Assembly: GCA_964568275.1 (NCBI GenBank)
Contig: CAZMRP010000001.1
Span: forward strand, 8,382-72,381
Origin: an uncultured Myxococcales bacterium
GTDB lineage: Bacteria > Myxococcota_A > Polyangia > DRWM01 > JAAZOP01
Reading direction: 5' to 3'
Length of the DNA stretch: 64,000 bases
Shown: piece after piece, positions 12,708 to 28,700 of the stretch
How the letters are laid out: each line of letters starts with the position of its first letter
Numbering within the stretch: position 1 is the stretch's first letter
The notes under the pieces: generated by a model
Databases searched by the model: none
Seen by the model: the letters and a program-made list of their open reading frames with translations, nothing else
What the model was told of the DNA's origin: nothing
Position numbers and translations under genes: made by a program

Positions 12708-12750
12708 TACTCCCATACCCGTCGGAACCATTGACGTATTCTAGCCGTTC

Positions 12751-12800: not shown

Positions 12801-12857
12801 TTGGGAGTCCGAAATGGAGTCCGTGATGTGGACGGCGGAGTCCGGTTCCAGGCGACC

Positions 12858-13619
12858 TCACGCACGGCAGATCACCCCCACATCGATGAGCGCCTCCAGA
12901 TGGTCTCGAAGGGTCCGTGGAACCGGTCCGCCAGGAATCGCCACCCCGGCTTCCATGTTCTTCTCCAACGCGTAGCCCGTAAGGTTCGCGCTGGTGATGA
13001 AGGCGCGTGCCCCGTCCACCACCGCCACCTTCGCATGGACCTTGCCATCGACGAACGGCTCCGGCTTTTCCTTCCACGTGTAGATCTCGGCAGAGGGGAC
13101 GCAACCACGCATCGTCGCAGCAGGGTCGACGCTGAGGCTGCCTCCGTGACTCGTCGAGGCTTCTAGCAGTACGCGGATGCGGACGCCGCGCGCGTTCGCC
13201 TCGTTCATCGCCTTCACGACGCTGGGCACGTCGTAGGCGACGAAGCTGACGAGAAAGAGATCCTTGTCAGCACTACGAATCATGTCGATTAGAACCTGCT
13301 CGGTGCGACGTGTCGCAACGAACCGTGTCGTCGGACCCGTCCAGACCAGCTCAACGTTGAGCTCTTCCTCCGTTCGCCTACGCGCCGCGGACGCCCCGAG
13401 AAGCATGCCGGCGACCTCGACTCCGCTGGCGGGCGTACTCGCCCATGCATCCAGGAGACGGACCACAGAAGCGCGGGCGGCCGGGGTTCCTACCAGCGAT
13501 TCGGCGCCCGGTGCGTCGGAGGGACTCGAGATGCCCCGCAACGCTCCGGCGACAGCCCCCACCTTCGTCGGCGATACCAACGCGACGAGATCCACGATGG
13601 CGTCGAGGAGAGCCTGCAT
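12858..13619 (-). CDS. drmC: PLD-family (HxK x4 D) nuclease, DISARM DrmC-like
   Basis: VHAKVAVVDG...ITSANLT; start ATG overlaps drmB stop (TGATG). Confidence 0.65.
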   Translation of the reverse strand: MQALLDAIVDLVALVSPTKVGAVAGALRGISSPSDAPGAESLVGTPAARASVVRLLDAWASTPASGVEVAGMLLGASAARRRTEEELNVELVWTGPTTRFVATRRTEQVLIDMIRSADKDLFLVSFVAYDVPSVVKAMNEANARGVRIRVLLEASTSHGGSLSVDPAATMRGCVPSAEIYTWKEKPEPFVDGKVHAKVAVVDGARAFITSANLTGYALEKNMEAGVAIPGGPVPRTLRDHLEALIDVGVICRA

Positions 13620-15457
13620 CAGATCGCCCCGAAGAACGCGGCGTCGGTCACTTGGAGCGTCGGGATGACGAGGGCTCGGTCGAGATACCGGTTGCCACAC
13701 TCGCACGATGTCTCGGAGACGAACGAGCACGCGTGGCACGAGGCGGCGTGGAGCGACTGGTCCTTCCGAGGGTCGTGCTCGGCGCACAAGGGATCCGAGG
13801 CGCACACCTTCGCACGATCGAGCGCCTGCCTGAGCAGTCGCCCCAAGTTCTCGGGTTTGCCCAGCTCGACGAGCCCGCCGAGCGTTCCGTCCGAGTCGGC
13901 GGCAGCCGTGTAGATCAGGATGCCCGCCTGCGACTTGCCGCCTTCGGTATCGGCGTAGACGCGCTCACGGATGCTCGCCGCGTTGTAGCCGCAGTCGAGC
14001 GCCAGCTCGCGGATGAGCAGATGGGCAATCGTGTGCAGCAGCGCGAAGCGGACACCGGGGAACCCGGGGTCCGGCTCGAGGCCACGTCGAGCACGCCAGC
14101 CACGGTGGCCTCGGCGCAGGATAGACCCCTGCGCCCGGGAACCGGTGCCGGCCTCCCACTTCGCGAGTGCGTCCTCGCAGAATCGCAGGAAGATCCCCTC
14201 GCCATGGACCTGCGTCGCGGGCACCCAGGTCGGAGCACCTCTGCCGATCGGCGCGCGCGGTGCGCGGTCCTCGCCACCTTCCGTCGGTGATTCCACCCGA
14301 GTGAAGCCGAGAAGCGCGTTCACCTCTCTCAGCCGCTCCAAGAGCAACACCCTGGCGATGTACGGCTCGAAACCGGTGGGGACGTCCACCTCCTTGCTCA
14401 TGAAGAACGGGTAGTCGGTCGGCGGCGTCGGCGCCGTCAGCACATCCCATTCTGGACCCTTCAGGTCGAATCCCTGGTCGTCACTGGTGCCGCTCCGATG
14501 CTCCTCGATCGCCGCCCAGACCTGGGCGCCGTCGAACGCTTCGATGCCAGGTAGCTGTGCGGACTTCTTGAGCGTCTTCACGACGGCCGCCGCCTCCACC
14601 TCGCTCTCGACGTCTTCGAAGAAGGTCCAACCGTCGGCGACGACCTGGGCGAGCGGGCTCCCGGTCTGCGGAATCGCCAGCACCGAGAGCGTCAGAGGGA
14701 ACCAACCGTTCGTAGCGCCGAGCAGAATCGCTCTGGGCACCTCGGTGCAGCCATCCTCGAATCGATCGAGGTGCGGGTGCCGCCCGCGGCACCCCGGCAG
14801 GTTGTCCTTGCCCACCTGGCCGAACGCCTGCGCCATGCTCTTGGCCGCGCCACAGGAGTCGCACCGGACCCACAGGTTCTCGGTCTGGAGCGAAGCGCCG
14901 CTCTCGAAGAACCTGAGCGTGCCCTTGCACCCGCTCGCGCCGCCATGGACGAACCAGTGCCATGGGAAGTCGTCGAGGTGTCCAGCTCGGCAGGCGAGCA
15001 AGAAACGCGCGGGAACGGCATCGGCGTCTCGTGGCGGCAGATCCCCCCGCGAACCACGACATCCCTTGTGGACGAATCTCGTGAACTCGGGCCGGAACCG
15101 GTTCGCCTTGAGTTCGAAGAGGCCGGCATCGAACGGCGACAGCAGACCGCACTTCACGCAGCGCATCCAGCGCGGGAACGGCTTCACGGGAACGCCGATG
15201 TATGCCTCCGCAGAGAACGGATCGACGTCGTCCGCGTCCGTCATCGGCGGCATGCGCAAGGATTCGACCTGGTCGCCGAGCGCCCTCCGCACGTTGGCGA
15301 GCAGCCGGGCCTCCTGGATGGGCTGGCACCGATTGCGCTCCCAACGGTCGATGCCCATCGTCACGACGGAGAGGTTCGGCAGGTCGACGAGCGAACCGGG
15401 ACCATAGGTCCACAGGAGCTGGCTGGGCCTGACGTCGCCTACGGGGGTCTTGCTCAT
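13619..15457 (-). CDS. drmB: DUF1998-domain protein, DISARM DrmB-like
   Basis: N-terminal RPSQLLWTYGPGSLVDLP; C-terminal Cys cluster CHACSFVSETSCECGN; 4-nt overlap with drmA. Confidence 0.65.
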   Translation of the reverse strand: MSKTPVGDVRPSQLLWTYGPGSLVDLPNLSVVTMGIDRWERNRCQPIQEARLLANVRRALGDQVESLRMPPMTDADDVDPFSAEAYIGVPVKPFPRWMRCVKCGLLSPFDAGLFELKANRFRPEFTRFVHKGCRGSRGDLPPRDADAVPARFLLACRAGHLDDFPWHWFVHGGASGCKGTLRFFESGASLQTENLWVRCDSCGAAKSMAQAFGQVGKDNLPGCRGRHPHLDRFEDGCTEVPRAILLGATNGWFPLTLSVLAIPQTGSPLAQVVADGWTFFEDVESEVEAAAVVKTLKKSAQLPGIEAFDGAQVWAAIEEHRSGTSDDQGFDLKGPEWDVLTAPTPPTDYPFFMSKEVDVPTGFEPYIARVLLLERLREVNALLGFTRVESPTEGGEDRAPRAPIGRGAPTWVPATQVHGEGIFLRFCEDALAKWEAGTGSRAQGSILRRGHRGWRARRGLEPDPGFPGVRFALLHTIAHLLIRELALDCGYNAASIRERVYADTEGGKSQAGILIYTAAADSDGTLGGLVELGKPENLGRLLRQALDRAKVCASDPLCAEHDPRKDQSLHAASCHACSFVSETSCECGNRYLDRALVIPTLQVTDAAFFGAI

Positions 15458-18400
15458 GGCGCCTCCTCATCGGTCGTCGGGCGGGGCTGCCAGGCAGGGT
15501 CCGTGAGCGAGCGGTCGTCCTCCATGACGAGACGCACGGCGGGCTCGACCTCGCGCATCGAAGTGGGCACGGTCCAGGTCGACCACGGCCGGATCCCCGG
15601 CGATTCGAGCAGGGGGTATGCCGTGGGACCGGCTCGGTACTTCTGATACACGAGGGTGCGCCCTCCGACTCCAGCTTCCTGGGCCCAGGCATCGGCGCGA
15701 CTCTTCAGCTCCGCTTCCGCCAGGGTCTTCTTCACCGAGTCCTCGGTCACGTCCCATCCGCGCGCGCCGAGCGCCTGTATCGTCGAGATCATCTCCGGCC
15801 GGCTCGGGCTGGTCATCGCGCCGGCCCCCGCGTTCGGGGAGAACGGCTCGAAGCGATTGCGCATCAGCGAGAGCATGGTGCCCGTCAGTCCGCGGTCCAT
15901 CGCTCGGGGAGAGAAGGGCGTGACCGATTGGGCCTCGACGTGCTGGTAGAACGTCGCGTGGTAGTGCTCGTACGTCTCGTAGTGGGAGAGGTCGCGCGGC
16001 CGAGCCCATGTCAACACCGACACGACGAGCCCCGGAAACGCACGACCGACTCGACTCGTCGCTTGGATGTACTCGGCGGTCCCCTTGGGCTGGCCGTTGA
16101 CGACCATGACTCCCAGGCGGTTCACGTCGACGCCGACCGACAGCATGTTGGTCGCGAGTACGACATCGATGGGGCGCGGATCGTTCTCACCGCGCCGGAA
16201 CACCCACCTCTGCTCGGCGATGTCGTACACGCCGTCGAAACGGACCTCGAGCTGATCCAGGTACTTGGGGATGTCGGAGTTCGAGACGCGAGAGGTGAGC
16301 TCCACGACGCTGCCGACTCGCCTCTGAGCCAGTCCCGGCCTCTCGACCAGGCTCATCCTCACTCGGAACGAGCGGGTCTGCACATCGTCCTCGGCCAGTC
16401 GCTTCATCCCTCCCAGCTCACGGAGCGAGTTGAAGTACCCGACGAGGGTCATGTACGGGTCGGCGACCGGACCGAAGCTGTCGAACAAGGCCTGCGCCGC
16501 CGTGAGGATCGCGGTGTAGGTCCGGATCAGCACAGCGGGTCGCGAACTGCCAGGTGCGCAGACTCCCACGTAGCATCGGCCGGGCTTGCTCGCGATGGGG
16601 CGCTGCAGCGAGAAGAAGTCGTCCTCGACGTCGAGCGCCTTCGGCGGGAAGAGCGCGAGCCTCCGCATGAAGACGTTCCGCACCTGGTCACCTGCGCGTC
16701 GGGCGGTCGCGGTCGAGGCCACGACCTTGGGACGAACCTTCGTCTCCCCGAAGTCCCAACTGCAGAGGTCGTCGACGGCACTCTCGTATAGACCGACCAT
16801 CGTCCCCAGGGGGCCGCTGATGAGGTGGAACTCGTCCTGGATGATCAGGTCCGGCGGACGCACCGCGCGCACGGGAGTCACCTTCGCCGCCGGATGCGGC
16901 TTTCGCGCCCGGTGACCGGTCCCGCAGTCGTGCCCGGGCCAGAGCAGTCCATGCCGGTCGCACTCCTCTCTCGCTCGGCCGAAGAGCGTGCGGACTTCCG
17001 GTCGCCATGCCATCATCGCGAACTTGTCGACGGTCGCGATCATCATGCTCGGAGGTCGGTAGTAGATCTCCTCGTCCACGACCTCGACGGGAATGCCCGG
17101 ATGGCGACGGTCGGCCGAACGAGCCTTCGAGAACGGACACCGACTCAGCTTGTCTCCGCAGCAGATCGACGTTCTGCAGACGGTCTTGTCCACTTCGATG
17201 TCGCGCCCCGGAGAGATTTCGGCACCGCACCAGGGGCAGCTCGTGAGCTGGGCCGGCGACGCGATCCCGGAGCGATTGCGATCCTTGTCGCGGATCGCCT
17301 CGATCGCCTGGTGAGATTGTTCGGTGGTGCCCGGGGTCACGCGATTGCCGACCCAGAGGCCCAGCGTGAAAGGCTCTCTGCCCCAGGCGGCCTCCTCCTC
17401 CCAGCGGATCGTCTCCATGGCGCAGATCAGGGTCGCCGCCCTCTGGAACTGCTGCAGGGTGAGGAGGCGCAGCGTGTAGCGCATGATCACTGCGAGGCCA
17501 CGCGTGCCATCCAGCTCGGCCACGACGCCCTGGAGGCGTCGGATCCCCATCGCGAAGGCGGCCACCCCGAGATAGGCCTCCGTCTTGCCGCCGCCTGTCG
17601 GGAACCAGAGCAGGTCCGCGAATGCCTCGGCCGGACTGGTCCGGTCCGCGTGCCTCGGATCGGTCAGGGAGGGTATCGAGAGCAGGAGGAACGCCAGCTG
17701 GAACGGCCGCCACGACCGATTCCCGGGAACGTCGAGGTCGTCCAACTCGACAGCTTCTCTTCGCCTTCGCTTCAGGGCGAAGATCGAGTGGATGCGCTGC
17801 AGCGCCATGGCCCGGTTGGTGAACCGGAAGGCGGCCAGCGCGTTGGGATCCGCGAGGAGGACTTCCATTCCCGCCCGGAGACGCTTCAGGGTCGTATCGC
17901 AGCGATCCAGTGCAGCATTCGCCGGCTCGTCGTATTCCACGACATCGGCGCCGACCCGTGCCCGCTGCTCCCCGATCCACGACTCGTAGTCGTCGACGAG
18001 CGTCGAGAGCGCCCGACGGAGGTCGGCAGGTTCCATCTCGGCGAGCGACGACATGTCGAGCCAGCCGCGTTCGACCATCTCGCGCATCGCCGGGCGGTCG
18101 GCCGGGTCGAGCCCTGGAGTCTCCGTGACCGGAACCTCCAGCCGGGGAATGACCACGGTTCGGACCTCCACCGCTCGCGTCGGATCGTCCGGTGCCGTCT
18201 CCGCGTGGACGGCGACCCCGTGCCCGACAGCGAATTCGACACGTCGACGGTAGATGAGGCCGAGGTGGTCCCGCTCGGGATCGTCGACGACGACGTCGTT
18301 GCTAGGTCGCCGCCTGAAGATAGCCGGAGCCTCGTGGTGCCGGCTACGCACGATGATCTCCGGTTGGAACAGCCAGGCCCTGTCCTTGTTCGTTTCGGGC

Positions 18401-19428
18401 TCGAGCCGACCGTTGACGAGGAACAGCGTCACGAGGCGTTCGCCGTTCGCATTCGTGCGGACCGTGCCCTGCATCCGCACTTCTTCCTCGCGGGGATCGG
18501 GAACGAGCGGGCGAACCGGGCCATCGGTCATCGGCAGTGGCGACGTGCCACCACAGGGCACCCGCCGCCACACCTTGACCTTCGCTTCTTCCTGCTCGCC
18601 CGTCTTCCGGTTCTTCCGAGGCTTCGTGTACTCGTGTTCGTCGTTCGGGACCCGCTCGTACCGGCCCCATCGGGCCGTCACTTCGATTTCATCGACATCG
18701 GGAGCGACGCAGAACGTGAGCCCCATGCTCGAAGGGATCAGGGACTGGTTGTTCGAGGTGTCGATCTCGTCGAGGGCATCGTCTTCGGGTTCCACCCGTC
18801 CGCTGGCCCGATTGAATTCCGCGCCGGGCTCGTGGAGCGGAGCCGGGCTCTCGTCTTCGAGAGACACCTCCGTCGCGTCCGCGGCTGCGGCGGGCTCCAC
18901 CTCTACCGTGTCCTCATCGCCCGGACGCCTCGGCGCCAGCTTGCCGACGAGGTACCGGTCGCGAACGCTCATGTCGATGACGAGCTCCTCCGGCCCGTTC
19001 GCCGGGCCGAGCAGGTCGTCCCGTGTCGCGAACTCGAGCAACTCGCGCACGTAAACGGCGTCCTGAATCAGGGGCACGTCCTCCGATGTCGAGACCCCGT
19101 CGCGGGCGAGGACACTCGCGAGGTCCTCGGGGCGCAGCCGCGCGATCGGTCCAGAGGGTGGCGCGAGCCCGACGTCGGCGAGGGAGCCCGCTTTCGCCAC
19201 GGTGTGGAGCTTGTCGAAGTAGAGCGTGGTCCCTTCGAGGTCGACCCGGATCCGGAGGATGCGCCCTACGCGATTCAGCGCCCCGGTCCCATCGACCACG
19301 ACCACCCAGCCGCCAGGGCCCACCGCGCTGCCGAGGCGATCACCGTCGAGCCGAACGACGAACGGGCCGAGCGACGTCTCCTCCTTGACACGCCATGCCT
19401 GTGCGTTCGGTGCGGTGGTCGTCTCCAT
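15454..19428 (-). CDS. drmA: large SF2 helicase, DISARM DrmA-like
   Basis: Motif I PTGGGKTEAY, motif II IIQDEFHLISG, motif VI QATSRVGR; 1324 aa. Confidence 0.7.
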   Translation of the reverse strand: METTTAPNAQAWRVKEETSLGPFVVRLDGDRLGSAVGPGGWVVVVDGTGALNRVGRILRIRVDLEGTTLYFDKLHTVAKAGSLADVGLAPPSGPIARLRPEDLASVLARDGVSTSEDVPLIQDAVYVRELLEFATRDDLLGPANGPEELVIDMSVRDRYLVGKLAPRRPGDEDTVEVEPAAAADATEVSLEDESPAPLHEPGAEFNRASGRVEPEDDALDEIDTSNNQSLIPSSMGLTFCVAPDVDEIEVTARWGRYERVPNDEHEYTKPRKNRKTGEQEEAKVKVWRRVPCGGTSPLPMTDGPVRPLVPDPREEEVRMQGTVRTNANGERLVTLFLVNGRLEPETNKDRAWLFQPEIIVRSRHHEAPAIFRRRPSNDVVVDDPERDHLGLIYRRRVEFAVGHGVAVHAETAPDDPTRAVEVRTVVIPRLEVPVTETPGLDPADRPAMREMVERGWLDMSSLAEMEPADLRRALSTLVDDYESWIGEQRARVGADVVEYDEPANAALDRCDTTLKRLRAGMEVLLADPNALAAFRFTNRAMALQRIHSIFALKRRRREAVELDDLDVPGNRSWRPFQLAFLLLSIPSLTDPRHADRTSPAEAFADLLWFPTGGGKTEAYLGVAAFAMGIRRLQGVVAELDGTRGLAVIMRYTLRLLTLQQFQRAATLICAMETIRWEEEAAWGREPFTLGLWVGNRVTPGTTEQSHQAIEAIRDKDRNRSGIASPAQLTSCPWCGAEISPGRDIEVDKTVCRTSICCGDKLSRCPFSKARSADRRHPGIPVEVVDEEIYYRPPSMMIATVDKFAMMAWRPEVRTLFGRAREECDRHGLLWPGHDCGTGHRARKPHPAAKVTPVRAVRPPDLIIQDEFHLISGPLGTMVGLYESAVDDLCSWDFGETKVRPKVVASTATARRAGDQVRNVFMRRLALFPPKALDVEDDFFSLQRPIASKPGRCYVGVCAPGSSRPAVLIRTYTAILTAAQALFDSFGPVADPYMTLVGYFNSLRELGGMKRLAEDDVQTRSFRVRMSLVERPGLAQRRVGSVVELTSRVSNSDIPKYLDQLEVRFDGVYDIAEQRWVFRRGENDPRPIDVVLATNMLSVGVDVNRLGVMVVNGQPKGTAEYIQATSRVGRAFPGLVVSVLTWARPRDLSHYETYEHYHATFYQHVEAQSVTPFSPRAMDRGLTGTMLSLMRNRFEPFSPNAGAGAMTSPSRPEMISTIQALGARGWDVTEDSVKKTLAEAELKSRADAWAQEAGVGGRTLVYQKYRAGPTAYPLLESPGIRPWSTWTVPTSMREVEPAVRLVMEDDRSLTDPAWQPRPTTDEEAP

Positions 19429-19444: not shown

Positions 19445-20440
19445 CTACAGTTCCACCCGCGAAAAGTGCGGGTAGATCCGGTAGAACTTCTTGAACACCT
19501 CGAAGGGATCGGTCCCCATGTCCGAAGTCGGCAGCTCGAAACCGAGTCTGGTCTTGGCGTCCTCGTTCGACTCCATCGTCAGCCTCTCCAGCGTCGATAG
19601 TGCAGGGAGGTCTAGCCGGTGTGGCGCATCCGTGGTCGTGTAGAACTCCCACCCCTTCACGAGGTCCTCGATGACCGTGTCGTCCGTCGGGACGACCACC
19701 AACGCCGCGGTGACCATCGCCTGGCCGTCGGCATAGTGCGTGGCGAGCGCCCAGACGATGCGGCGTTCACGGAAGCTGAGCGCCTCGTTGTCGACAGCCA
19801 GCTTCACGGCGCGCAGGAGGCTCGGTCCGTACGTCTTGAGGGTCATGCCCTCTGCAGTCAGCCCGCTGGGGAACAACGCGCCCAAACGCTCCCTGAGGCG
19901 CGCGAGGCGCCACTCGTGGATCGTCGGCTTCATGGAGCGGTCCTCCGACGCCTCGCCTTCGAGTTCGACCGAGAGGTCCTTCGGGTCAGGGTTCCCTAGA
20001 GACGCCGGGTTCGCGTTCAGCGTCAAGCGCACGATGCTGCCGAGCGGCACGGTGCCGATGGTGCGTGCGAAGCGCTCGATCTGCGTCGTGATGCCCCGGG
20101 GCTCGGAGTAGTCGAACCAGACGATGACGGGTGTGTCGAAGTCGGTCTCGTCGAGGTGGTCCTCGAGGGTCCTGTGAACGCACTCGATGGAGGCGATCGG
20201 TCGATTGAAAGCCTGGCGCAAGTGCACCTACTCCTCCGTCTCGATGCACGTCATCTTGGCGATGCCCAACCGCCCGTGGACCAACCGGAAATCCTCGAGG
20301 AACGGCCCACCGAGCCCGACGTAGTGGTACTTCTCGAGCCCAAGCGTCGGCGTCAGCCGCATCAAGAGCGACAGGAACAGTTCGCGGTCCACGGCCTTGT
20401 TCGGCCGCAACCTGTACGGAAGTGAAGAGCCGGCGGTCAT
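19445..20440 (-). pseudogene. single ~330-aa reading frame interrupted by in-frame TAG at 20228-20230 (70-aa and 260-aa halves); unknown function
   Basis: The 70-aa ORF ends ...IETEE-TAG and the next codon GTG, in the same frame, opens the 260-aa ORF. Sits between the GHKL ATPase and drmA. Confidence 0.45.
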
Positions 20441-20442
20441 GG

Positions 20443-21864
20443 TCAGCCACCCCGCTTCTTCGCCTTGGCCAGTGCCAGGTCGAAAGCCTTCTCGCCGACG
20501 ACACCGGGCTTCGCGTTCTCGTCGTCGAGCAACGCCTTGCCGACCAGGCGGATCTCCCCGGCAGGCTTCGAGAACGTGACCCGGCGCGAAGACGGCGTCT
20601 TGTTCGGGGGCTCGGGCAGTACCTTGTTCTTCTTCGGGTTGAACTCGACGCCCTCGTCGTCAGACCTCTTCGTGGCCTTTCGTTGAGCCACCGCCTCGAG
20701 CGCCTTGCTGAGCGACATCGGACGAGCGTCCTCCCAGTGTCGCGCCTGCTGCTGCTCGGCCTCCGCCTGGTTCTTCCACTGATTCGTGTAGTCGATCCAG
20801 ACGCGCATGCCCTCCTTCATCTTGACGAGGGACTCGAGCCACACGTTCGACGACGTGTCGAGGGCGCGCTTGGTCGTCGTGACCGGCAGCTTCTCGGCGC
20901 GCTTCGATCGGAACTCGATGATGCCGGTAATGATGGCAAACTGCGGGTGGTAGAGCGGGATGCCGTCGCCCCAGCCCGTGAGGCGCGTCTTGTCGCCGAC
21001 GATCACTGCGCGGTCGTTGCACAGCACCGTCCAACCTGCGGTCGGCGACGAACGATCGCGTTCGAACCCGGCGTCCTCGTCCTCATCGTTCCCGAAGCCT
21101 CGGTTGAGATTCCTGCCGACGGTGATCGAGACGACCACGCCGTCGATCGTCTTGCGAAACACGTAGGGCGCCGGGCCGTCCTCGCGCTGCGAGACGAGGA
21201 CTTCGACCCGAACGGGCTCCACCAATTTCCCGTTGAGTTCGACCTTCAGCCCCCACTGCAGGAAGATCGTGAAGTGCTCGGAGATGGCCTTGCGCACCTT
21301 CTCTACGAACGCGTCGTTCTCGAAGTGCCGCGCGACGCCCTCGTAGAGTTCCTTGACGATGATCGTGGTGCCCGGCTCCGCAAGTTTCTCGCTCGCCTCC
21401 GTCGGTTCGTTGATGGGCAGCGGATCCCAGTTCTTCGCCTCGAGCCACTGCGAGGTGATGGGCACCTCGAACGTGTTGCCACCATGCCGCGTTCGGACGA
21501 GCGACTCCCTCCCCATCTTGAAGATCGCGCGCTTCATGCCGACGCCGTACATGCCGATGGTCTCGGTGTCCGAGTCGCGGTCGTCGTCGGGCTCCCGGCC
21601 CATCTTGAAGGCGTAGTTGATGGCGACATCGCGCGGGATGCCGCCGCAGTTGTCCTCGATCGAGAAGTGGTCCTTCGCGAGAGAGATGTTCACGGAGTGC
21701 TTGGCGTAGTCCACCTTGTCGCCGTTGGCGACGCGCATCGCGCCGTCGAGGCAATTGTCGAGAAGGTCGAGGATGGCGTCGTCGAGGCTGATGTCTCGCG
21801 TCAGCATCGATACGAAGAACTGCTTGGTCGGAGTCGCCTGCGCTTTGTCTGTGCTCTGTTTCAT
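20443..21864 (-). CDS. GHKL (Bergerat-fold, MORC/HATPase_c-like) ATPase
   Basis: N-box ILDLLDNCLDGA, G1 IEDNCGGI, G2 GMYGVGMKRA; start overlaps drmMI stop by 4 nt. Confidence 0.65.
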   Translation of the reverse strand: MKQSTDKAQATPTKQFFVSMLTRDISLDDAILDLLDNCLDGAMRVANGDKVDYAKHSVNISLAKDHFSIEDNCGGIPRDVAINYAFKMGREPDDDRDSDTETIGMYGVGMKRAIFKMGRESLVRTRHGGNTFEVPITSQWLEAKNWDPLPINEPTEASEKLAEPGTTIIVKELYEGVARHFENDAFVEKVRKAISEHFTIFLQWGLKVELNGKLVEPVRVEVLVSQREDGPAPYVFRKTIDGVVVSITVGRNLNRGFGNDEDEDAGFERDRSSPTAGWTVLCNDRAVIVGDKTRLTGWGDGIPLYHPQFAIITGIIEFRSKRAEKLPVTTTKRALDTSSNVWLESLVKMKEGMRVWIDYTNQWKNQAEAEQQQARHWEDARPMSLSKALEAVAQRKATKRSDDEGVEFNPKKNKVLPEPPNKTPSSRRVTFSKPAGEIRLVGKALLDDENAKPGVVGEKAFDLALAKAKKRGG

Positions 21865-24800
21865 CGGCTGGCCCTCCGTTTGCTGGCCTTCTTCGCAGGC
21901 GCCGCGTTCGTCTTGGAATTCCTCGACTCGCTCGGCTCGACCTCAGGCGCCTCAACGCCCCTGCGCGTAGTTGCTGCGACAAATAGATCTTCAACCGAAG
22001 CGTTGAGTTCGCGCTCAAGAGCGGTACGATCCTCGTGCGACAAGCGTCCGTGGAGGCGCCGTGCAAGACTGGCGATCCGCTCGCTCAATTCGAGTCCTTG
22101 GTCAGGGAACACCATCGGCAATCTCCCCAATAGTGTGGGCTTTACCTGCGCCATGACGCGGCCTTCTTCCTGCGAGAAGACGCGGTAAACCCGCGCCATG
22201 AGGTCCGAATTCAATATGCCCGCCAGAAAGTACGGATCGATGTCGTGACGAGGGGCGAGCACGTAGACACCGTCCAGTGCGTAACGTTGCTCTTTGTCGA
22301 CTGCGACCTTCGGGCGGTCAGCGGTGATGACGCCCAAGAGCTTCGGGGTCCGCTCGAAAACGCGCCGCTCTCTCGCTCTGTGAAGCGCATGAAGCTCGTG
22401 TTTTCCGTCCTTCACTTCCTTGCAGGTGATCTTGTGCGCGTTACGCAGAACCCATTTCACGATATTTGGAACCGACTCGGGCTTGGTGCTCTTGTCCGTG
22501 TAGATGAGTAGAGGAAGACCTGCAGCTACTTCGAAGGGGCGCACATGAACGCCGCCTGTAACTACCGGACGGAGCACTTCTTCTTCAAGCCGCTCTTTCC
22601 GCGCTAACGATTCATCGACAACGAACACGTCCTTGTTGTCCGCACTCGCGCCGCGCTGGATCCCGAGGTCGTCGATAAGATTCGCAAGTTTACACTCTGC
22701 CTTCAGGACCAACGCGGCTACTTCCCGGTATTCGCCAACATCAGTCGTTGGAATGACGCATCCCGGGAAGGAGGCGACGGCAGCTGACGAAAGCGACTGT
22801 GTCTCATGGTGGCCTGTTGCCCACTTCTCGATGCTTAGCTCATATTCCGCCGATGGGTCGCGACACGCGGCGAAGACCACAAAGCAGCATGGCCGGACGA
22901 CCTTGAGAAACACGCCCTCGCCCAGGTCGCAGACGGTTACGAGGCGGTGGTGTCGAAGAAGATGCTCTCGGAGAGGCTGTGAATAGCCTTGGTAGAGAAG
23001 CACGTCGGGGACCACCAATCCGGAGAACCCATTGTGCGTGTGGTATCTTGAGGACCCCGAAACCATCAGGTGCCCGGCTCGCAAGATGAATAGATGGAAT
23101 GAATCAACAAGCCGCCCAAGCTTGTCGCCGTCGATCGTTTTCCAGAGCCGCTGCAACTCGTCGGCAAGACGTGCACCCCACGGCGGGTTGGACAACACGG
23201 CATCAAACCCCTGTCGTGCCATGCTGAACACTTCAGGAAACTCGAGCGGCCAGTGCAACGGGCGCAGGTGGTTGGAGACCGTCGCCAACGACCTGCGCTG
23301 GTTGTCACCGTTCACGAGCCGATCCGCACTAACGGCGAACCCCGCAAGTCGCGACTCCAGCACTCGATCGGTCTCCGCTGTCAGTACGGTCGATATGAAT
23401 TCATCGGCCAGTTCCTCCGAGACGCTGATCTTCTCGCGGGCAGCGGCATCGAGCGAGGCCATCGCCTCCACGTCGCGAATGTCACGGATAGGCATCTGGC
23501 GTAGCTGAAGGCGGATCGCCAACGCCTCCTCGACGGCCTGTCTGACGTTCCTCCCGAAGAGTCGTCCTTGCGTCTGCTGCTTCGGAGCCATCGACAGCTC
23601 CGTGAGTTGTTCGAGGCAGGTGATACCGAGCAGGCTGTCGCCACACCGCAGGTTGTGGTCGAGGAATCCGAAGGGGCGGCCCTTCGCGATCGTGACGAGC
23701 CAGAGAGAGAGCTTGGCGAGTTCGACGGCGAGCGGATTCAGGTCGACACCGTACAGGCAGCGCTCCGCGACGAGACGACGAGCCTGCTCAGCCCGCGCCT
23801 CCGCGGTGGCGGGGATCGGTTCCACGTCGGCACCTGCTCCGTGGACTCGGCCCTCGATATTGACCGCGTTGCCGGCGGCCTCGGCGATGCCCCACGCTTC
23901 GACCACCCTCGCGCTGAGACACCGGCACGCCTGGACCAGGAACGCTCCCGAGCCCATCGCCGGATCGCAGACCTTCAGGTCCAGGAGTTCCGCAGGCGAC
24001 TTCAGCGTCCAGGATTCCCTGGGCGCTCCCTTCGCCGGCCCATCGTAGACCAGGGGCGTCAGCGTCTCTTCGACGATCTTCTCGGTCAGGCTCTTCGGGG
24101 TGTAGTGCGTTCCGGTCTCTCGTCGGTCGATTCCCATCACGACGACGAAGGCGCCCTCGGGATGGACGAGCGGGTAGCCCCACGGATCCGTGCGCAGCAG
24201 CCACGCGTAGGGCTCGAGTCGATCTCGCAGCGCGACGTCTCCGCGGCACGCCGTCAGGAGCCGAGCGCCGAGTCGTGCGTCGACCTCGTGCTCAAGCGCA
24301 TTCCGGATGGAGGACTCGGAACGGCGAGTCCTCTCCACGAAGAGAGCGACGACCGCGTCGTCGCCGTCCAGTCGAGCCGACTCCAGCTCTCCGAGAGTCA
24401 CCCGCGGGTCTTTCGCCTGAGCGCCGCTCTCCAGCTCCAGGGTCACGTCGTCGACCCGTTTCACGGTCCTCTCCAGCAGACCCTCGTATACGTGGCCTAT
24501 CTGCTCGACATCGAGAGCGCGATACGAGAGCGTGCGCCCCTCGAAGGTCTGGATGGCGTCGAGGAGGAGGAGCACGGTCCGGTCGTCGATGGGCAGAGGA
24601 GCGGCCGGATGATGTCTCCAGCTCGATCCCTTGGACCGGCCCTCGAGGAACGGGAAGCGGTCGGGATCGAAGAGCGAGCCGCCCATCGCAGGGAGATGGA
24701 GGGTCGGGTGGTCGATGCCCCCGAAGACCGCGCGGAACACCGCCAGCAAACGCGACCACGCAGAGCGTCGCCGTTCGAGGATCTCCTCGCTCTCGACCCT

Positions 24801-25739
24801 CAGCTGCATTCGGAGCGTCGAGACCGCGTAGAACGAATCGTACCTCGGCTCGCCCAGCAGCAGGAGCCCGCGCTCCTCGGCCGCTAGGAGGAAGACGAGC
24901 CGCATCATGACCGTCAAGCCGGCCTCGTAGAGCTCCTGGGGCTTCACATCTCTGAGAAGCTCTCGATTGCGGTCCTGGTCGGCACGGTCGAGGGCCTGGA
25001 CCAGCACCTCGACTGCACGTCGAACGTGCTCGCCGAGGGCGTCTGTCACCTCGTCCTGGTGCTTCAGCGATCTCTCGAAGAGGCTCGGGAGACGGTCCTG
25101 CTCGGGTCCGAAGAGACGGCGCACGCCGAGCAGCGACGCGAACGCGCGGAGCGTCTCCGGCTCCTGACCCCACAGACGAGCGTACCAGCTCGCGAACGTG
25201 GACACCTGGCCCACCGGAGCATGGACGACCATCCAGCGTTCGCCGTTCGTCACGACGCCGAGCGGACAGCCCACCGCTCGCAGATGCATGGCCATGCGAT
25301 CGGCCGGCGAGCACGACAGTCCTCCGAATCGCATCGAAGCGACCAGATCGGTGTCGGGGGAGAAGACGTGCACCGGAACCAGGAGCGCATCCGAGCGAGC
25401 GGGGTCCACCAGAGCCCAGTCCGGCACGATCGCCGTATCGTGTTCGGGCAGATCCGCGCGAGCCGCGGAAGGAACGCGGTCGCCGCGCCGGAGCAGCTCG
25501 TCATCCGCCTCGAGCGCGGTGCGCAGGACCTCCTCGACCCAGGCCTCGTGGAGCCGTCCGAGGTCGCTGTCCTCCGAGTCCACGGCGTCCCGCCACTCTT
25601 CGTAGGCGCTGCGGAGCCGCCTGGCGCGGAGGGCATCCAGTTCCTCCAGTCCCTGCGGGAACGCTTCCCGGAGGACCGGGAGAGCCAGGAAGGGGCCCGA
25701 GACCTCGATGAGCTCCAGCCACTCGTGATTGCGGCTCAT
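21861..25739 (-). CDS. drmMI: large N6-adenine DNA methyltransferase, DISARM DrmMI-like
   Basis: Motif I DPAMGSGAFLV, motif IV VLSNPPWG; 1292 aa; 4-nt overlaps on both sides. Confidence 0.75.
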   Translation of the reverse strand: MSRNHEWLELIEVSGPFLALPVLREAFPQGLEELDALRARRLRSAYEEWRDAVDSEDSDLGRLHEAWVEEVLRTALEADDELLRRGDRVPSAARADLPEHDTAIVPDWALVDPARSDALLVPVHVFSPDTDLVASMRFGGLSCSPADRMAMHLRAVGCPLGVVTNGERWMVVHAPVGQVSTFASWYARLWGQEPETLRAFASLLGVRRLFGPEQDRLPSLFERSLKHQDEVTDALGEHVRRAVEVLVQALDRADQDRNRELLRDVKPQELYEAGLTVMMRLVFLLAAEERGLLLLGEPRYDSFYAVSTLRMQLRVESEEILERRRSAWSRLLAVFRAVFGGIDHPTLHLPAMGGSLFDPDRFPFLEGRSKGSSWRHHPAAPLPIDDRTVLLLLDAIQTFEGRTLSYRALDVEQIGHVYEGLLERTVKRVDDVTLELESGAQAKDPRVTLGELESARLDGDDAVVALFVERTRRSESSIRNALEHEVDARLGARLLTACRGDVALRDRLEPYAWLLRTDPWGYPLVHPEGAFVVVMGIDRRETGTHYTPKSLTEKIVEETLTPLVYDGPAKGAPRESWTLKSPAELLDLKVCDPAMGSGAFLVQACRCLSARVVEAWGIAEAAGNAVNIEGRVHGAGADVEPIPATAEARAEQARRLVAERCLYGVDLNPLAVELAKLSLWLVTIAKGRPFGFLDHNLRCGDSLLGITCLEQLTELSMAPKQQTQGRLFGRNVRQAVEEALAIRLQLRQMPIRDIRDVEAMASLDAAAREKISVSEELADEFISTVLTAETDRVLESRLAGFAVSADRLVNGDNQRRSLATVSNHLRPLHWPLEFPEVFSMARQGFDAVLSNPPWGARLADELQRLWKTIDGDKLGRLVDSFHLFILRAGHLMVSGSSRYHTHNGFSGLVVPDVLLYQGYSQPLREHLLRHHRLVTVCDLGEGVFLKVVRPCCFVVFAACRDPSAEYELSIEKWATGHHETQSLSSAAVASFPGCVIPTTDVGEYREVAALVLKAECKLANLIDDLGIQRGASADNKDVFVVDESLARKERLEEEVLRPVVTGGVHVRPFEVAAGLPLLIYTDKSTKPESVPNIVKWVLRNAHKITCKEVKDGKHELHALHRARERRVFERTPKLLGVITADRPKVAVDKEQRYALDGVYVLAPRHDIDPYFLAGILNSDLMARVYRVFSQEEGRVMAQVKPTLLGRLPMVFPDQGLELSERIASLARRLHGRLSHEDRTALERELNASVEDLFVAATTRRGVEAPEVEPSESRNSKTNAAPAKKASKRRASR

Positions 25740-28700
25740 CGCTTCTTCCCCTCGCTGAGCGACTCGGGCACGAGGAAGACCACGGCCACCGGGAAGGTGT
25801 GCTCCACGAGGTCCGTGTGGCGTTCTTCTATGGCCTTCCGTTCACGTTCCCGCTCGTCCGGTATCCGCGCGAGCCGCGCCTCGAGAGCCGCTCGGTCCCG
25901 CCGGAGCTGGGTCCGCTCGTCCTCGGAGAAGAGCGATAGCTGGCGGGGCTCCTCGTCCTTCTCCAGCTCGGACTCGAGGTTGGCGGCGAGGTCGTCGAGG
26001 AGCTGCATCATGTCCTCGATCTCGCGGCGCTTGCGGATCTCGATGGTGTTGCCGAGCGTGCGGAGCCTCTCTCTCGAGCGTGCCTCGACGGCACCCAGCA
26101 CCGCATCCGTGTGTTTCTCGAAGCGAGCCCTGAGCGCGTCGAAGAGCGACTGCGGCACCTGCCCGGGTCGCGAAGAAGCGAGCCACTCGCGCAGGCTCGT
26201 CACCCGGTCTTCTCGCTTGAAGCTCCCGTCGCGGAGATGGCCACCGGCCTCGGTCAGCTCTTCGTGGAGGCGGTGGTGGTTCCCGCCCGTGATCACCAGA
26301 CGCGAGAGCACGGCGACAGCAGGAGTCTCCAGCTTCGCGTCCGGCACCGTCCGGACGGTCGCGCGATTCAGCTTCTTCACGTCGTCGCGCGCCCAGACCT
26401 CGGCCCGGAGGAGCCGCAGGCTCATCTGGACCAGAGGGTGGTTGAGATGGACGAGAACGACGTCGTCGCGACCCTTGGCGACCTCGTGGTCGAATGTGAT
26501 CGGGCGAATCCGCTTCGTGTAAGGGTGCTCGAGTCCATCGAGACAGCGCGACCACGACCCGGCCAGCGGCGGGAGGTGGAACACCTTGGCTCCGGCGGCT
26601 CCTTCCAAGCCTGTCGGAACGAGGTCCGGCTTGTCCGTCAACCGCAACGCCGTCCTCACCGCTCGCGCGATACGGTCCGGCGTGAGATGCTGCTCGCTCC
26701 GAGTGGTCGTCAGTCGTTCGTGCAGCTTGGCGATCCGCTCGCGGAGATCGCGCTCGGCTCTGATGTACTTGCGAGCGCGCTCCATCCGCTTCTCGGCCAG
26801 GGCGGTGTCCAGCTCTCGCCGCCGGCCTTCGAGCAGAGCGGGAAGCTGCGGTGCGATCACGGGATTCACGCTTCCCATGTCGGCCCGCATCGCGTCGAGC
26901 TTCCTGAGTGCGCGGAGGATGTCGTCCCCGTGGTTGCCGCTTGCGTCGACCGGGTGCCAGATCACGACTTCTCTCTGCTTCTGGCCGTGGCGATCGATGC
27001 GCCCGTTGCGCTGCTCCATCACGTTCGGGTTGTAGGGGATCTCGATGTGAATCAGGAGATTGCAGTGGTTCTGGAGGTCGATGCCTTCCGATGCGGCATC
27101 CGTCGCGAGAAGGATGCGGACCGGAGAATCCTTCGGATCCGCCTGGAACGCCGCCTTGACGGCCTCCCGGTCCTTGGGGTCCATGCCTCCGAAGATCAGC
27201 GCGAGGCGCTCGCCTCCGAAGCCGTGGGTCGCGAGTATCTCGTGGAGCCAGGCCTGCGTCGTGCGGTACTCCGTGAAGAGGATGACGCGGCGGTCCGTCC
27301 AGCGACCGTCGGGGCGGATGTGTTCTCCGAGCCAGGCGATCAGCGCCCCAGCTTTGGAGTCCGGCTGCCGGGAAGCTCGTCGTGCCCAGGAACGCAGCGC
27401 CTCTGCCTGCCGGCGCTCGTCCGCGGACAGGCGTCTCAGTCGCCGACTCGCCTCCTCCACGGCGTCGCCCTCGGCGGATTCGCGGATCTCGTCGTCGGCG
27501 TAGTCCTCCTCGGTCTTCGCGATGGCGCGCCTGAGAATGCGGTCGTCGAGCCGTGACGAACGGCTCGTGCCGACCCGCTGACCTTCGATGGTGGCGATGT
27601 ATCGCTCGAAGGTCGATGCGAAGGCCGCGGGCGACGAGGCCAGTCTCTTGCGGAGCAATCGATGGATGAAATGCGAAGCGGCGCCTTCCTGCTCGTCCTG
27701 CTTCTCGCGGCTGGCGATGTACTCGACTAGCAGCCGACGCGCGTCTCGCTCGTCCTCGGTGTAGTCGACTTCGAGAGCCTCGAGCCGTCTTTCGGGATGG
27801 ATGCGATTGCCCTCGCCGTCGACCAGGTCGCCCTTGAGACGACGGACCATCACTCGTGCCAGTTGCTCCTCGGACGGAAGGACGTTGCGCGAGAATCGCT
27901 GGTCGTCCAGCAGCTCGAGCAACGCGGTGAAGGACTCCGTGTATCCGTCGTGCGGCGTCGCGGTCAGGAAGAGCTTGTGCTGGAAGTGGGGCGCCAGCAG
28001 GCGCACGAGTCGGGTGCGGAGGCTCTCCACCGCGTATCTGCCCACCGTCGGTGCGACGTTGTGCGCCTCGTCCACGATCAGCAGGTCGAAGCGCCTCGGG
28101 AAGCTCGGGTGCGAAGGAAGCGTGTCTCGCAGGAGCCGGATGCCCTCGCCTTGCTTGATCCAGTCGATCGATGCGATGAGCCTCGGAAATGAAGTCCACG
28201 GATTGGCGTGCACGCCGCGATCTCTGCGTAGTCTCTTGACATAGTCGGTGTCGACGATGAGGAAGTCGAGACCGAACTTCTCGATCATCTCGGTGCGCCA
28301 CTTCTCCTGCAGCGACGCCGGGCACAGGACGAGAATCGTGCGAGCCCGATGGCGGAGCAGCATCTCCTGGACTACGAGGCCGGCCTCGATGGTCTTGCCG
28401 AGGCCGACGTCGTCCGCGATCAGCAGGTTGGTCCGAGCCATGTCTATCGCACGGACCAGCGGATCGAGCTGATAGTCCTCGATGCTGACGCCGCTGCGAA
28501 ACGGTGCCTGGAGATAGCCGTGATCCGCATTGGTCGCAGCACCCCATCGGACGGCGTCGAGGAAGGCCTCGAGGTCCTCCGGCGGGTCGAGCGCAGCGAG
28601 GGTCGGAAGACCGGCGCGCTCGATGACATGCGCTCCAGGCTCGAGCTCCCAGAGGACCTCGAGTTCTTCGCCGAGCGCGTCTTCGTCTATGGATGCGAGC

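What the first reader, a model, noticed from the sequence alone, without database searches (positions are those of the whole stretch)
19445..21864. GHKL/MORC-like ATPase plus an unknown partner inserted between drmMI and drmA
Canonical DISARM has no Bergerat-fold ATPase. The 473-aa protein here carries N-box, G1 and G2 motifs and is coupled to drmMI by a 4-nt overlap. It is followed by a ~330-aa unknown. MORC-type ATPases have been reported linked to R-M loci in comparative genomics, but an insertion inside a DISARM core may be an undescribed variant or accessory module.
Basis: partly seen in the sequence, partly recalled or inferred. Interest (0 to 1): 0.8.

Follow-up and report, generated by a model that had tools for sequence, protein, structure and literature searches.

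The report
ATPase–methyltransferase gene pair inside DISARM
Two extra genes inside this DISARM phage-defence operon (a MORC/MutL-like ATPase and a methyltransferase-fold partner, the latter broken here by a stop codon) belong to a widespread, uncharacterised three-gene cassette that always travels with a cytosine DNA methylase and only sometimes sits inside DISARM.

Summary
A 473-aa GHKL ATPase (20443-21864, minus strand) overlaps drmMI by ATGA and lies inside an otherwise complete class-1 DISARM operon.

The "~330-aa unknown" is not unknown. It is a PF20553 (Methyltransf_35) class-I SAM-methyltransferase-fold protein. In this window it carries an in-frame TAG at codon 71, where 118 close homologues have mostly Gln or Glu and none has a stop.

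The pair is not DISARM-specific.
- In 86/86 fetched loci anchored on the ATPase, the partner is encoded nearby; it directly follows the ATPase in all but L005.
- In 74/80 viral contigs the partner directly follows the ATPase.
- Outside DISARM the only conserved neighbours are a C5 cytosine methylase (43/46 genomic loci, 79/80 viral contigs) and sometimes Vsr.
- DISARM-embedded copies form one derived clade.
- Only 22 of 63 informative DrmA-anchored DISARM loci carry the pair.

Best reading: an optional, mobile, Dcm-linked GHKL/methyltransferase-fold module of restriction-modification-like logic, plugged into DISARM. No nuclease was found and the mechanism is unknown. In this genome it is probably disabled.

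I found no paper, PADLOC model or NCBIfam model describing it. I file it as a new variant of known kinds (paraMORC R-M modules, DISARM). Interest is moderate to high.

The parts
20443..21864 (-). GHKL (MORC/MutL-like, HATPase_c_3) ATPase, 473 aa. N-terminal Bergerat domain, conserved middle region with an invariant TTTK332R motif, and a C-terminal extension.
19445..20440 (-). PF20553 (Methyltransf_35) class-I SAM-methyltransferase-fold partner gene, 331 codons, interrupted by a nonsense codon (probable pseudogene or split gene).
20228..20230 (-). In-frame TAG at codon 71 of the partner gene. Aligned orthologues have CAG. It is followed directly by an in-frame GTG (20225-20227), with GGAGG 5 nt upstream.
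   Evidence: Sequence. DNA alignment. Column 71 in 118 homologues: Q 83, E 33, G 1, A 1.
21861..25739 (-). DrmMI (N6-adenine methylase, MmeI/Eco57I-like), 1292 aa. Its stop overlaps the GHKL start (ATGA).
   Evidence: PADLOC DrmMI E = 0 and Pfam Eco57I/N6_Mtase/TaqI_C. The C-terminal ~440 aa do not align to the closest homologues.
25736..28819 (-). DrmD (SNF2 helicase). True start at 28819, overlapping the vsr stop (ATGA).
   Evidence: PADLOC DrmD E = 0. Sequence at 28816-28819. Full-length alignment to orthologues.
28816..29313 (-). Vsr very-short-patch repair endonuclease, 165 aa.
   Evidence: Pfam PF03852 E 6.8e-18.
29415..31034 (-). C5 cytosine DNA methylase (DrmMII-like). This is the maximal ORF; the real start is probably near 30450-30700.
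   Evidence: Pfam PF00145 E 2.5e-48 over residues 197-531 of the maximal ORF. Orthologue alignments start at residues 113-194.
15454..19428 (-). DrmA helicase, 1324 aa, 16 nt downstream of the partner gene.
   Evidence: PADLOC DrmA E = 0. 1712 bits to Serratia DrmA, PDB 7S9V_A.
13619..15457 (-). DrmB (DUF1998/MZB), 612 aa.
   Evidence: PADLOC DrmB and Pfam MZB. PDB 7S9V_B 1012 bits.
12858..13805 (-). DrmC (PLD nuclease), 315 aa.
   Evidence: PADLOC DrmC E 3.6e-102 and Pfam PLDc_2. Aligns over its full length with L009.

Best explanation
The two genes are the non-methylase half of a mobile three- or four-gene cassette: a C5 cytosine methylase (Dcm), sometimes Vsr, a GHKL ATPase, and a PF20553 methyltransferase-fold protein. 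In one derived lineage this cassette became interleaved with class-1 DISARM.

Shown:
- The ATPase and its partner are an obligate, usually translationally coupled pair.
- The pair is almost always next to a C5 methylase.
- ATP-binding motifs in the ATPase are conserved. So are motif I (G44-G45), the motif II acid (E67) and the post-beta4 D110-Y111 in the partner.
- The cassette occurs as cargo of prophages, plasmids and defence islands.

Inferred: the cassette follows restriction-modification-like logic.
- Dcm marks self DNA.
- The ATPase is an ATP-driven dimerising DNA clamp, as in MORC, MutL and topoisomerase ATPases.
- The ATPase acts with its SAM-binding partner on DNA lacking the mark. 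It may block or compact that DNA. In the DISARM-embedded form it may hand the DNA to DrmAB/DrmC.
- The pair stays 66-98% identical while the linked methylases diverge to 24%. So it probably reads methylation state or DNA structure, not the methylase's target sequence.

In this window the partner gene carries a very recent CAG-to-TAG change. The module is therefore probably inactive here, or expressed as two fragments, while the DISARM core is intact.
For: Pairing:
- The partner is encoded near the ATPase in 86/86 genomic, plasmid and phage loci, directly downstream in all but L005, and directly follows it in 74/80 viral contigs.
- 25 of 46 stand-alone pairs overlap by 4 nt.
- Pairwise identity of the ATPase tracks that of the partner (r = 0.79), but not DrmA (0.38) or the C5 methylase (0.39).

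Methylase linkage:
- A C5 methylase lies next to the pair in 43/46 non-DISARM genomic loci and 79/80 viral contigs.
- Vsr is present in 16/46 and 10/80.
- No other neighbour is conserved.

Mobility and defence context:
- Accessory (moron) region of Pf prophage PfAC20.
- Microvirga plasmid.
- 95 IMG/VR contigs.
- PHROG families for both proteins.
- Here the island holds an integrase, an HNH_2 gene, an ImmA/IrrE-like gene and a TcmP pair.

Derived capture by DISARM: neighbour-joining tree. The pair also occurs with DISARM cores only 45% identical to each other (L012, L013).

Folds and motifs.

Precedent: GHKL/paraMORC ATPases linked to Dcm, Vsr, helicases and nucleases in R-M systems (PMC2292703). 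C5-methylase + paraMORC-derived GHKL + small partner (PMC8011034). VcSduA, where the GHKL ATPase is required for defence (PMC12137116).

Recency of the stop: the window copy differs at none of the columns that are invariant in its 118 close homologues, of which 91 are invariant across all 119 sequences.
Against: - No experiment exists.
- No nuclease or other known effector domain was found in the core cassette, so 'restriction' has no identified executor.
- PADLOC (2023) and NCBIfam have no model for either protein.
- C5 methylase + Vsr also head DISARM operons that lack the pair (for example L189-L194, L206, L208, L212). The methylase therefore does not need the pair in that context.
- 40 of 63 related DISARM loci work, presumably, without the pair.
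- The Serratia class-1 system protects when reconstituted from six genes (bioRxiv 10.1101/2021.12.28.474362).
- The pair's high conservation against divergent methylases does not fit a classical cognate R-M pair.
- The C-terminal half of the ATPase model has pLDDT below 50. The S5/transducer domain and any DNA-binding part are therefore inferred from motifs only.
Confidence: 0.5

Rival explanations
1. The cassette is purely a modification or anti-restriction cargo. The PF20553 protein would be an active second nucleic-acid methyltransferase, loaded or regulated by the ATPase. Together with Dcm it would protect the carrying element (prophage, plasmid, island) from restriction. Inside DISARM it would add a further self-mark.
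For: - The SAM-binding and catalytic-position residues are conserved across 25-90% identical members.
- The closest folds are RNA/DNA base methyltransferases.
- No nuclease was found in the cassette.
- It is frequent on prophages and viral contigs, where orphan methylases are common.
Against: - Methyltransferases do not normally need a MORC/MutL-type clamp ATPase.
- GHKL/paraMORC proteins in R-M contexts are associated with the restriction side (PMC2292703, PMC12137116).
- The strict link to a C5 methylase is not explained.
- Recurrent nonsense or frameshift copies fit a costly activity better than a harmless mark.
Confidence: 0.2
2. The pair is a regulatory or sensor module. Like the paraMORC-derived HK-like/RR-like pair next to C5 methylases (now part of 'Ambrosia'), the ATPase would sense infection or DNA state. 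It would then control the activity or expression of neighbouring methylase and defence genes through its partner.
For: - The architecture is analogous: C5 methylase, then a HATPase_c_3 protein, then a small partner, with or without Vsr and HNH_2 (PMC8011034).
- Ambrosia requires its HATPase (bioRxiv 10.1101/2025.09.30.679545).
- An HNH_2 gene lies next to the methylase in this window and in a few other loci.
Against: - No receiver, DHp or HTH domain was detected in either protein.
- The partner is a full methyltransferase fold with conserved cofactor residues.
- The fold of the ATPase is far from histidine kinases.
- The stand-alone cassette has nothing obvious to regulate except Dcm.
Confidence: 0.1
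3. The pair is a DISARM-specific accessory subunit pair. The ATPase and partner would have evolved as parts of a DISARM variant and would act only with DrmD, DrmMI and DrmAB.
For: - ATGA coupling to drmMI, and a fixed position between drmMI and drmA, in 35 species-level loci across several phyla.
- The pair is present in 14 of 16 informative loci whose DrmA is at least 73% identical to the window's.
Against: - Deep and basal branches of the family are all outside DISARM.
- 45/80 genomic and 80/80 viral loci have no DISARM gene.
- 40/63 related DISARM loci lack the pair.
- In L012 the pair sits after drmC, next to its methylase.
Confidence: 0.1
4. The pair is a very-short-patch repair helper. 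The MutL-like ATPase would stimulate Vsr, as E. coli MutL does, to limit C-to-T mutation caused by the linked C5 methylase.
For: - The MutL-Vsr interaction is established knowledge (cited in PMC2292703).
- Vsr is present in this operon and in the DISARM-embedded loci.
Against: - Vsr is absent from 30/46 stand-alone genomic loci and 70/80 viral loci that keep the pair.
- The methyltransferase-fold partner has no role in this scheme.
Confidence: 0.05

Closest known systems
MORC / paraMORC GHKL+S5 ATPases of prokaryotic restriction-modification systems (Iyer, Abhiman and Aravind 2008, PMC2292703)
   Same: - N-terminal Bergerat ATPase with intact motifs.
- A conserved region after it with an invariant Lys, and a C-terminal extension.
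- Sporadic, laterally mobile distribution.
- Neighbourhoods with cytosine methylases, Vsr, SF2 helicases and occasionally HNH.
   Different: - The described families pair with, or are fused to, nucleases, helicases or TIR domains.
- Here the obligate partner is a SAM-methyltransferase fold and no nuclease is conserved.
- Which paraMORC family this is, if any, could not be decided. The family-defining motifs were not available to test.
Class-1 DISARM (drmD, drmMI, drmA, drmB, drmC, with or without drmMII; Ofir 2018 from memory; bioRxiv 10.1101/2021.12.28.474362; PMC9142583)
   Same: All five core genes are present, intact and in canonical order. A C5 methylase (drmMII-like) and Vsr sit at the head of the operon.
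   Different: - Two extra genes lie between drmMI and drmA.
- They are not in PADLOC's DISARM models.
- The DISARM papers I read do not mention them.
- They are absent from 40/63 related loci.
C5-methylase-linked paraMORC-derived HK-like + RR-like pair (PMC8011034) and the Ambrosia system (bioRxiv 10.1101/2025.09.30.679545)
   Same: A methylase next to a HATPase_c_3-type GHKL protein plus one dedicated small partner gene, often with Vsr or HNH_2 nearby.
   Different: The partner there is a receiver-like domain and the GHKL protein carries HK-like domains. In Ambrosia the effector is an HNH nuclease. Here the partner is a methyltransferase fold.
Shedu type I-D / paraMORC3 (VcSduA, PMC12137116)
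   Same: A GHKL ATPase used in a validated anti-phage system. The ATPase is thought to gate an effector.
   Different: VcSduA is a single protein with a fused PD-(D/E)xK nuclease and has no methylase linkage.
BREX (from general knowledge)
   Same: A methylase-based self/non-self system with ATPases and no identified nuclease.
   Different: The two share no homologous components apart from generic methyltransferase folds. This is an analogy of logic only.

Membership tests
GHKL (Bergerat-fold) ATPase superfamily | Motifs I-IV (N box, G1 DxGxG, G2 GxxGxG, G3 GT) | tested here: met
   D33-x3-N37-x2-D40, D71NCGG75, G104-Y-G-G109-K-R, G165T166. These are invariant or near-invariant in 40 sequences of 32-66% identity. 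An Asp takes the place of the usual motif-I Glu.
GHKL (Bergerat-fold) ATPase superfamily | Profile match above the curated threshold | tested here: met
   PF13589 HATPase_c_3, 37.5 bits against a cut-off of 25.
GHKL (Bergerat-fold) ATPase superfamily | Bergerat fold in a structure model | tested here: met
MORC family sensu stricto | GHKL plus S5-fold transducer with a Lys contacting ATP, and the MORC-specific motif | tested here: inconclusive
   An invariant TTTK332(R) and conserved W298-G299 and Q308 follow the ATPase domain. That half of the model has pLDDT below 50. The best PDB sequence hits are MORC3/MORC4 but weak (E 0.012-0.28, G1-G2 region only). The MORC signature motif was not tested.
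Class-1 DISARM | drmA + drmB + drmC core with drmD and drmMI | tested here: met
   PADLOC models hit all five (E = 0 to 3.6e-102). All align over full length to orthologues.
Class-1 DISARM | The two extra genes belong to the defined gene set | tested here: not met
   No PADLOC hit for either protein. Absent from 40/63 DrmA-anchored loci. Most family members lie outside DISARM.
Class I SAM-dependent methyltransferase (partner protein) | Rossmann-like seven-strand fold | tested here: met
Class I SAM-dependent methyltransferase (partner protein) | Cofactor-binding motif I (Gly-rich loop after beta1) and an acidic residue at the end of beta2 | tested here: met
   G44 47/47, G45 40/47, E67 46/47, and post-beta4 D110 47/47 and Y111 42/47, across 25-90% identical members.
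Class I SAM-dependent methyltransferase (partner protein) | Methyl-transfer activity and substrate | not testable with these tools
   No biochemical data exist. The Pfam and RefSeq name 'O-methyltransferase' is a prediction.
Cation-dependent O-methyltransferase (the name given by Pfam/RefSeq) | Conserved metal-binding acid/amide residues after beta4 and beta5 | tested here: inconclusive
   D110 is invariant. N142/N144 (LNANP after beta5) are conserved only among close homologues, not across the family. The top fold matches are nucleic-acid base methyltransferases, not O-methyltransferases.
Restriction-modification system | A cognate methylase linked to the candidate restriction genes | tested here: met
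   A PF00145 methylase is adjacent in 43/46 and 79/80 loci. In this window it is at 29415-31034.
Restriction-modification system | An endonuclease | tested here: not met
   No nuclease domain was found in either protein. The only other conserved neighbour is Vsr, in a minority of loci.

The most novel reading that the evidence does not exclude
The C5-methylase + MORC-like ATPase + methyltransferase-fold triad is a self-sufficient, nuclease-free immune system. It occurs in at least 559 stretches of species-representative genomes and 95 viral contigs. In this reading a bacterial MORC-type clamp with a SAM-binding partner recognises DNA lacking 5-methylcytosine and silences, compacts or chemically marks it. 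It can also be bolted onto DISARM to couple the 5mC mark to the DrmAB helicase. That would make it a prokaryotic counterpart of eukaryotic MORC/DNA-methylation silencing.
Probability: 0.2. Interest if true: 0.85.

Novelty: new variant of a known kind. Interest (0 to 1): 0.6.

Why it matters
- **A candidate defence module that current tools miss.** The pair is abundant: 1868 clusters at 50% identity, spread over many phyla, prophages and plasmids. PADLOC has no model for it, and one phage study called the cassette an 'incomplete R-M' (PMC11878078).
- **DISARM is modular.** About a third of the sampled relatives of this class-1 operon carry the pair. The pair is the best-conserved part of those loci and evolves independently of the DISARM core. 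This bears on how DISARM uses the 5mC mark.
- **An unusual partnership.** A MORC/MutL-like ATPase obligatorily partnered with a methyltransferase fold, keyed to cytosine methylation and lacking a nuclease, has no worked-out mechanism. It offers a tractable bacterial model for links between MORC proteins and DNA methylation.
- **For this genome.** The partner gene should be annotated as a nonsense-interrupted gene, not as an intact 330-aa protein.

Tried and rejected
1. **Serratia guess withdrawn.** I suspected that the experimentally studied Serratia sp. SCBI DISARM natively contains the pair. The reasons were that the system was cloned as three separate pieces and that its DrmB is 82-86% identical to loci carrying the pair. 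An unbiased DrmA-anchored survey showed that most loci of that sub-lineage lack the pair. The native locus could not be fetched.
2. **DrmMII as the triad's methylase: weakened.** I considered that DrmMII is simply the methylase of the embedded triad. C5 methylase + Vsr also head DISARM operons without the pair.
3. **No hits for either protein** in PADLOC or NCBIfam. PDB sequence searches gave only marginal hits.
4. **ATPase structure model is poor.** With a shallow alignment the mean pLDDT was 47.6, so the C-terminal half is uninterpretable.
5. **Unavailable or empty resources.** The afdb50 fold library was unavailable. E. coli genomes hold no relative at DNA level. The plasmid collection holds only two relatives.
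6. **The original DISARM paper** (PMC5739279) is not held. I could not check whether its figures show these genes.
7. **The 503-aa minus-strand ORF after drmC** (11354-12865) is probably spurious. It has no homologues, and an integrase gene occupies the opposite strand.
8. **Test for relaxed selection on the interrupted gene.** No excess substitutions were found. The stop is therefore recent or a sequencing error; reads would be needed to tell.
Full report
**What is in the window**

On the minus strand, genes run head to tail with 4-nt overlaps or very short gaps:

| Gene | Coordinates | Junction with the next gene |
|---|---|---|
| C5 cytosine methylase | 29415-31034 (maximal ORF) | 101-nt gap to vsr (97 nt as I counted it) |
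| Vsr | 28816-29313 | ATGA overlap with drmD |
| DrmD | 25736-28819 | 4-nt overlap |
| DrmMI | 21861-25739 | ATGA overlap |
| GHKL protein, 473 aa | 20443-21864 | 2-nt gap |
| 331-codon frame | 19445-20440 | 16-nt gap |
| DrmA | 15454-19428 | 4-nt overlap |
| DrmB | 13619-15457 | overlaps drmC |
| DrmC | 12858-13805 | end of operon |

PADLOC models identify all five class-1 DISARM proteins with E-values from 0 to 3.6e-102. They give nothing for the two inserted proteins. All DISARM proteins align over their full length to orthologues. Only the C-terminal target-recognition part of DrmMI is divergent.

**Checking the observation**

The 473-aa protein is a genuine GHKL ATPase.
- It matches HATPase_c_3 above Pfam's threshold.
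- The N box, G1, G2 and G3 motifs are conserved across homologues down to 32% identity. An Asp (D33) takes the place of the usual motif-I Glu.
- The best sequence-level PDB matches are MORC3 and MORC4, but they are weak.
- After the ATPase domain come invariant W298-G299, Q308 and TTTK332R. I read these, by analogy with the QTK loop of GyrB and the S5-domain lysine of MutL/MORC, as a transducer domain. That part of the model is unreliable, so this is inference.

- It matches Pfam PF20553 (Methyltransf_35, 'putative O-methyltransferase') end to end, E 5e-79.
- It contains an in-frame TAG at codon 71, at 20228-20230.

Orthologues in Archangium, Burkholderia and Bauldia have CAG there. The 120 best database homologues are essentially all 331 aa. 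In 118 close homologues the position is Gln (83), Glu (33), Gly (1) or Ala (1).

Otherwise the window copy differs at none of the columns that are invariant among those 118 homologues, of which 91 are invariant across all 119 sequences. The change is therefore very recent, or a sequencing error.

An in-frame GTG directly follows the TAG, with GGAGG 5 nt upstream. A 260-aa C-terminal fragment could therefore be made. The 70-aa N-terminal piece carries beta1 and the Gly-rich cofactor loop, so an intact enzyme is unlikely.

**What the partner is**

Across members 25-90% identical, these residues are nearly invariant:
- the Gly-rich loop (G44, G45);
- the acid at the end of beta2 (E67);
- D110-Y111 after beta4;
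- an N-terminal basic motif (Y9, R12, N14, K15, R19).

This looks like a cofactor-binding, probably active, enzyme. The label 'O-methyltransferase' is not supported by anything I could test.

**Context survey anchored on the ATPase**

The family is large:
- 4026 clusters at 90% identity with E of 1e-5 or better;
- 1868 clusters at 50% identity;
- at least 559 matching stretches in species-representative genomes.

I scanned the 80 best genomic loci, plus plasmid and phage hits, with the window's proteins.
- The PF20553 gene is present in every locus, directly after the ATPase in all but L005. There, on S. meliloti pSymA, the two genes lie 3 kb apart.
- 35 of the 80 loci are class-1 DISARM operons with the same layout as the window. 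They come from Myxococcota, Planctomycetota, Alpha-, Beta- and Gammaproteobacteria, Fibrobacteria and Rhodothermales, and include a Microvirga plasmid. RefSeq calls the two genes there 'ATP-binding protein' and 'O-methyltransferase'.
- The other 45 loci have no DISARM gene.

I clustered all neighbours within 6 kb in the 46 non-DISARM loci (these 45 plus L005). Only two further conserved families emerged: a C5 cytosine methylase (43/46) and Vsr (16/46). Most ATPase-partner pairs overlap by 4 nt (25/46).

IMG/VR holds 95 relatives. Among the best 80 viral contigs:
- 79 have a C5 methylase next door;
- 74 have the partner directly after the ATPase;
- none has DISARM.

Pseudomonas filamentous prophage PfAC20 carries ATPase, partner and C5 methylase as its first three accessory genes. 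The paper describing that phage listed only an 'incomplete' R-M system (PMC11878078).

A neighbour-joining tree places all DISARM-embedded ATPases in one derived clade. Stand-alone triads lie at its base and on all deeper branches.

**Context survey anchored on DISARM**

This avoids the bias of anchoring on the ATPase. I fetched 80 metagenomic loci by DrmA (61-91% identical to the window's). Of the 63 with enough upstream sequence:
- 22 have the pair between drmMI and drmA;
- 40 have drmMI directly followed by drmA;
- 1 has a remnant.

The pair is common among the window's closest relatives: 14 of 16 loci with DrmA at least 73% identical. It is rare in the sub-lineage that includes the structurally studied Serratia system. 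Plasmids of Deinococcus and Nocardia show the canonical five-gene operon.

Several operons without the pair still begin with C5 methylase + Vsr.

Within 31 pair-bearing DISARM loci the pair is the most conserved component:

| Protein | Median pairwise identity (%) |
|---|---|
| GHKL ATPase | 77 |
| PF20553 partner | 76 |
| DrmB | 72 |
| DrmD | 68 |
| DrmA | 63.5 |
| C5 methylase | 60 (minimum 24) |

ATPase identity tracks partner identity (r = 0.79). It does not track DrmA (0.38) or the methylase (0.39).

Loci L012 and L013 combine an 82-88% identical pair with DISARM proteins only about 45% identical. In L012 the pair sits after drmC, next to its methylase. The pair is thus a module that moves between DISARM backbones.

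**Interpretation**

The data show an obligate two-gene unit whose one constant companion is a C5 DNA methylase. It is carried by mobile elements and defence islands, and it is optionally nested in DISARM.

This matches the general picture drawn by Iyer, Abhiman and Aravind (PMC2292703) for MORC/paraMORC ATPases in R-M systems. It also parallels the C5-methylase + paraMORC-derived GHKL + small-partner architecture of PMC8011034, and Ambrosia (bioRxiv 10.1101/2025.09.30.679545). The partner here, a methyltransferase fold, is different, and no nuclease is conserved.

My best-supported reading (confidence about 0.5) is an R-M-like self/non-self module. Dcm marks self. The ATP-driven clamp and its SAM-binding partner act on unmarked DNA. 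In DISARM they would link the 5mC mark to the helicase/nuclease core.

Because the pair stays highly conserved while methylases diverge, it is unlikely to read the methylase's sequence motif.

All functional steps are inferred. Only linkage, folds and motif conservation are shown. The rivals are a second modification or anti-restriction function, a regulatory module, a DISARM-only accessory, and a Vsr helper. They are weighed in the rival-explanations section.

Single stops or frameshifts in the pair occur in several other loci: L019, L029, L064 and L066, and L203 and L205. That would fit a costly activity, but many of these are metagenome assemblies, so errors cannot be excluded.

**Literature and novelty**

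I found no mention of PF20553 or Methyltransf_35 in the searchable library. I found no mention of a GHKL protein in DISARM in the DISARM, ARMADA or YprA papers. The original DISARM paper could not be read.

I therefore rate the feature as a new variant of known kinds, not a new category. Interest is about 0.6. It is a well-defined, abundant, untested candidate defence module and a modular DISARM accessory. In this particular genome it is probably inactivated.

Noticed in passing
window 37393-39305 (+): A DUF5131/Gp37Gp68-family protein (Pfam E 3.5e-98) is followed, with overlap, by a 'three-Cys-motif partner protein' TcmP (TIGR04474, E 5e-53). This is another uncharacterised mobile two-gene pair in the same island.
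   Followed up: partly
window 11486-12643 (+) and 3809-4630 (-): Two tyrosine recombinase/integrase genes. The first converges on the end of drmC, which suggests the DISARM island is, or was, an integrative element. The overlapping 503-aa minus-strand ORF (11354-12865) is probably spurious. No tRNA gene was found in the window.
   Followed up: partly
window 30925-32295 (-): A 456-aa HNH_2 endonuclease gene lies directly upstream of the C5 methylase. It has a sub-threshold match to phosphorothioate-DNA-binding restriction endonucleases (NF045808). Relatives sit near the cassette in a few other loci: L013, L034, L053, L058.
   Followed up: partly
window 32816-33562 (-), 33573-34376 (-), 34389-36188 (+): An HTH_17 domain occupies the end of a long TTG ORF; the real gene is probably short, as in other loci where a 64-83-aa HTH_17 gene precedes the methylase. 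Next to it are a DUF429 protein and a fused HTH_3 + Peptidase_M78 (ImmA/IrrE-like) protein.
   Followed up: no
window 29403-29411: A run of nine G lies in the 101-nt spacer (97 nt as counted) between the C5 methylase stop and the vsr start, upstream of the whole DISARM operon. It could be a slippage-prone tract.
   Followed up: no
window 20228-20230: The disabling change is a C-to-T transition (CAG to TAG) in a genome that encodes a C5 cytosine methylase. Deamination of 5-methylcytosine produces exactly this kind of change. Whether this C lies in the methylase's target site is unknown.
   Followed up: no
window 21861-23180 approx. (DrmMI residues 855-1292): The C-terminal ~440 residues of DrmMI do not align with the closest orthologues, while the first 854 residues are 74-78% identical. 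This is consistent with a swapped target-recognition domain and a different methylation motif.
   Followed up: partly
L088 (Deinococcus sp. AJ005 plasmid p96k) 19431-23140: A canonical five-gene class-1 DISARM without the pair is followed by Vsr, a C5 methylase and a different 664-aa HATPase_c_3 protein. This is another Dcm-linked GHKL module parked beside DISARM.
   Followed up: partly
L012; L072 and L075; L017, L024, L033, L037: Variant architectures. In L012 the pair sits after drmC and is followed by the methylase. L072 and L075 each carry two copies of the pair. In L017, L024, L033 and L037, 1-5 kb are inserted between the partner gene and drmA.
   Followed up: no
L163-L165, L168, L169 (viral contigs): More distant GHKL relatives (28-30% identity, matching only residues 1 to about 365) keep the C5 methylase neighbour but lack the PF20553 partner. 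They are probably a sister family with a different C-terminus or partner.
   Followed up: no
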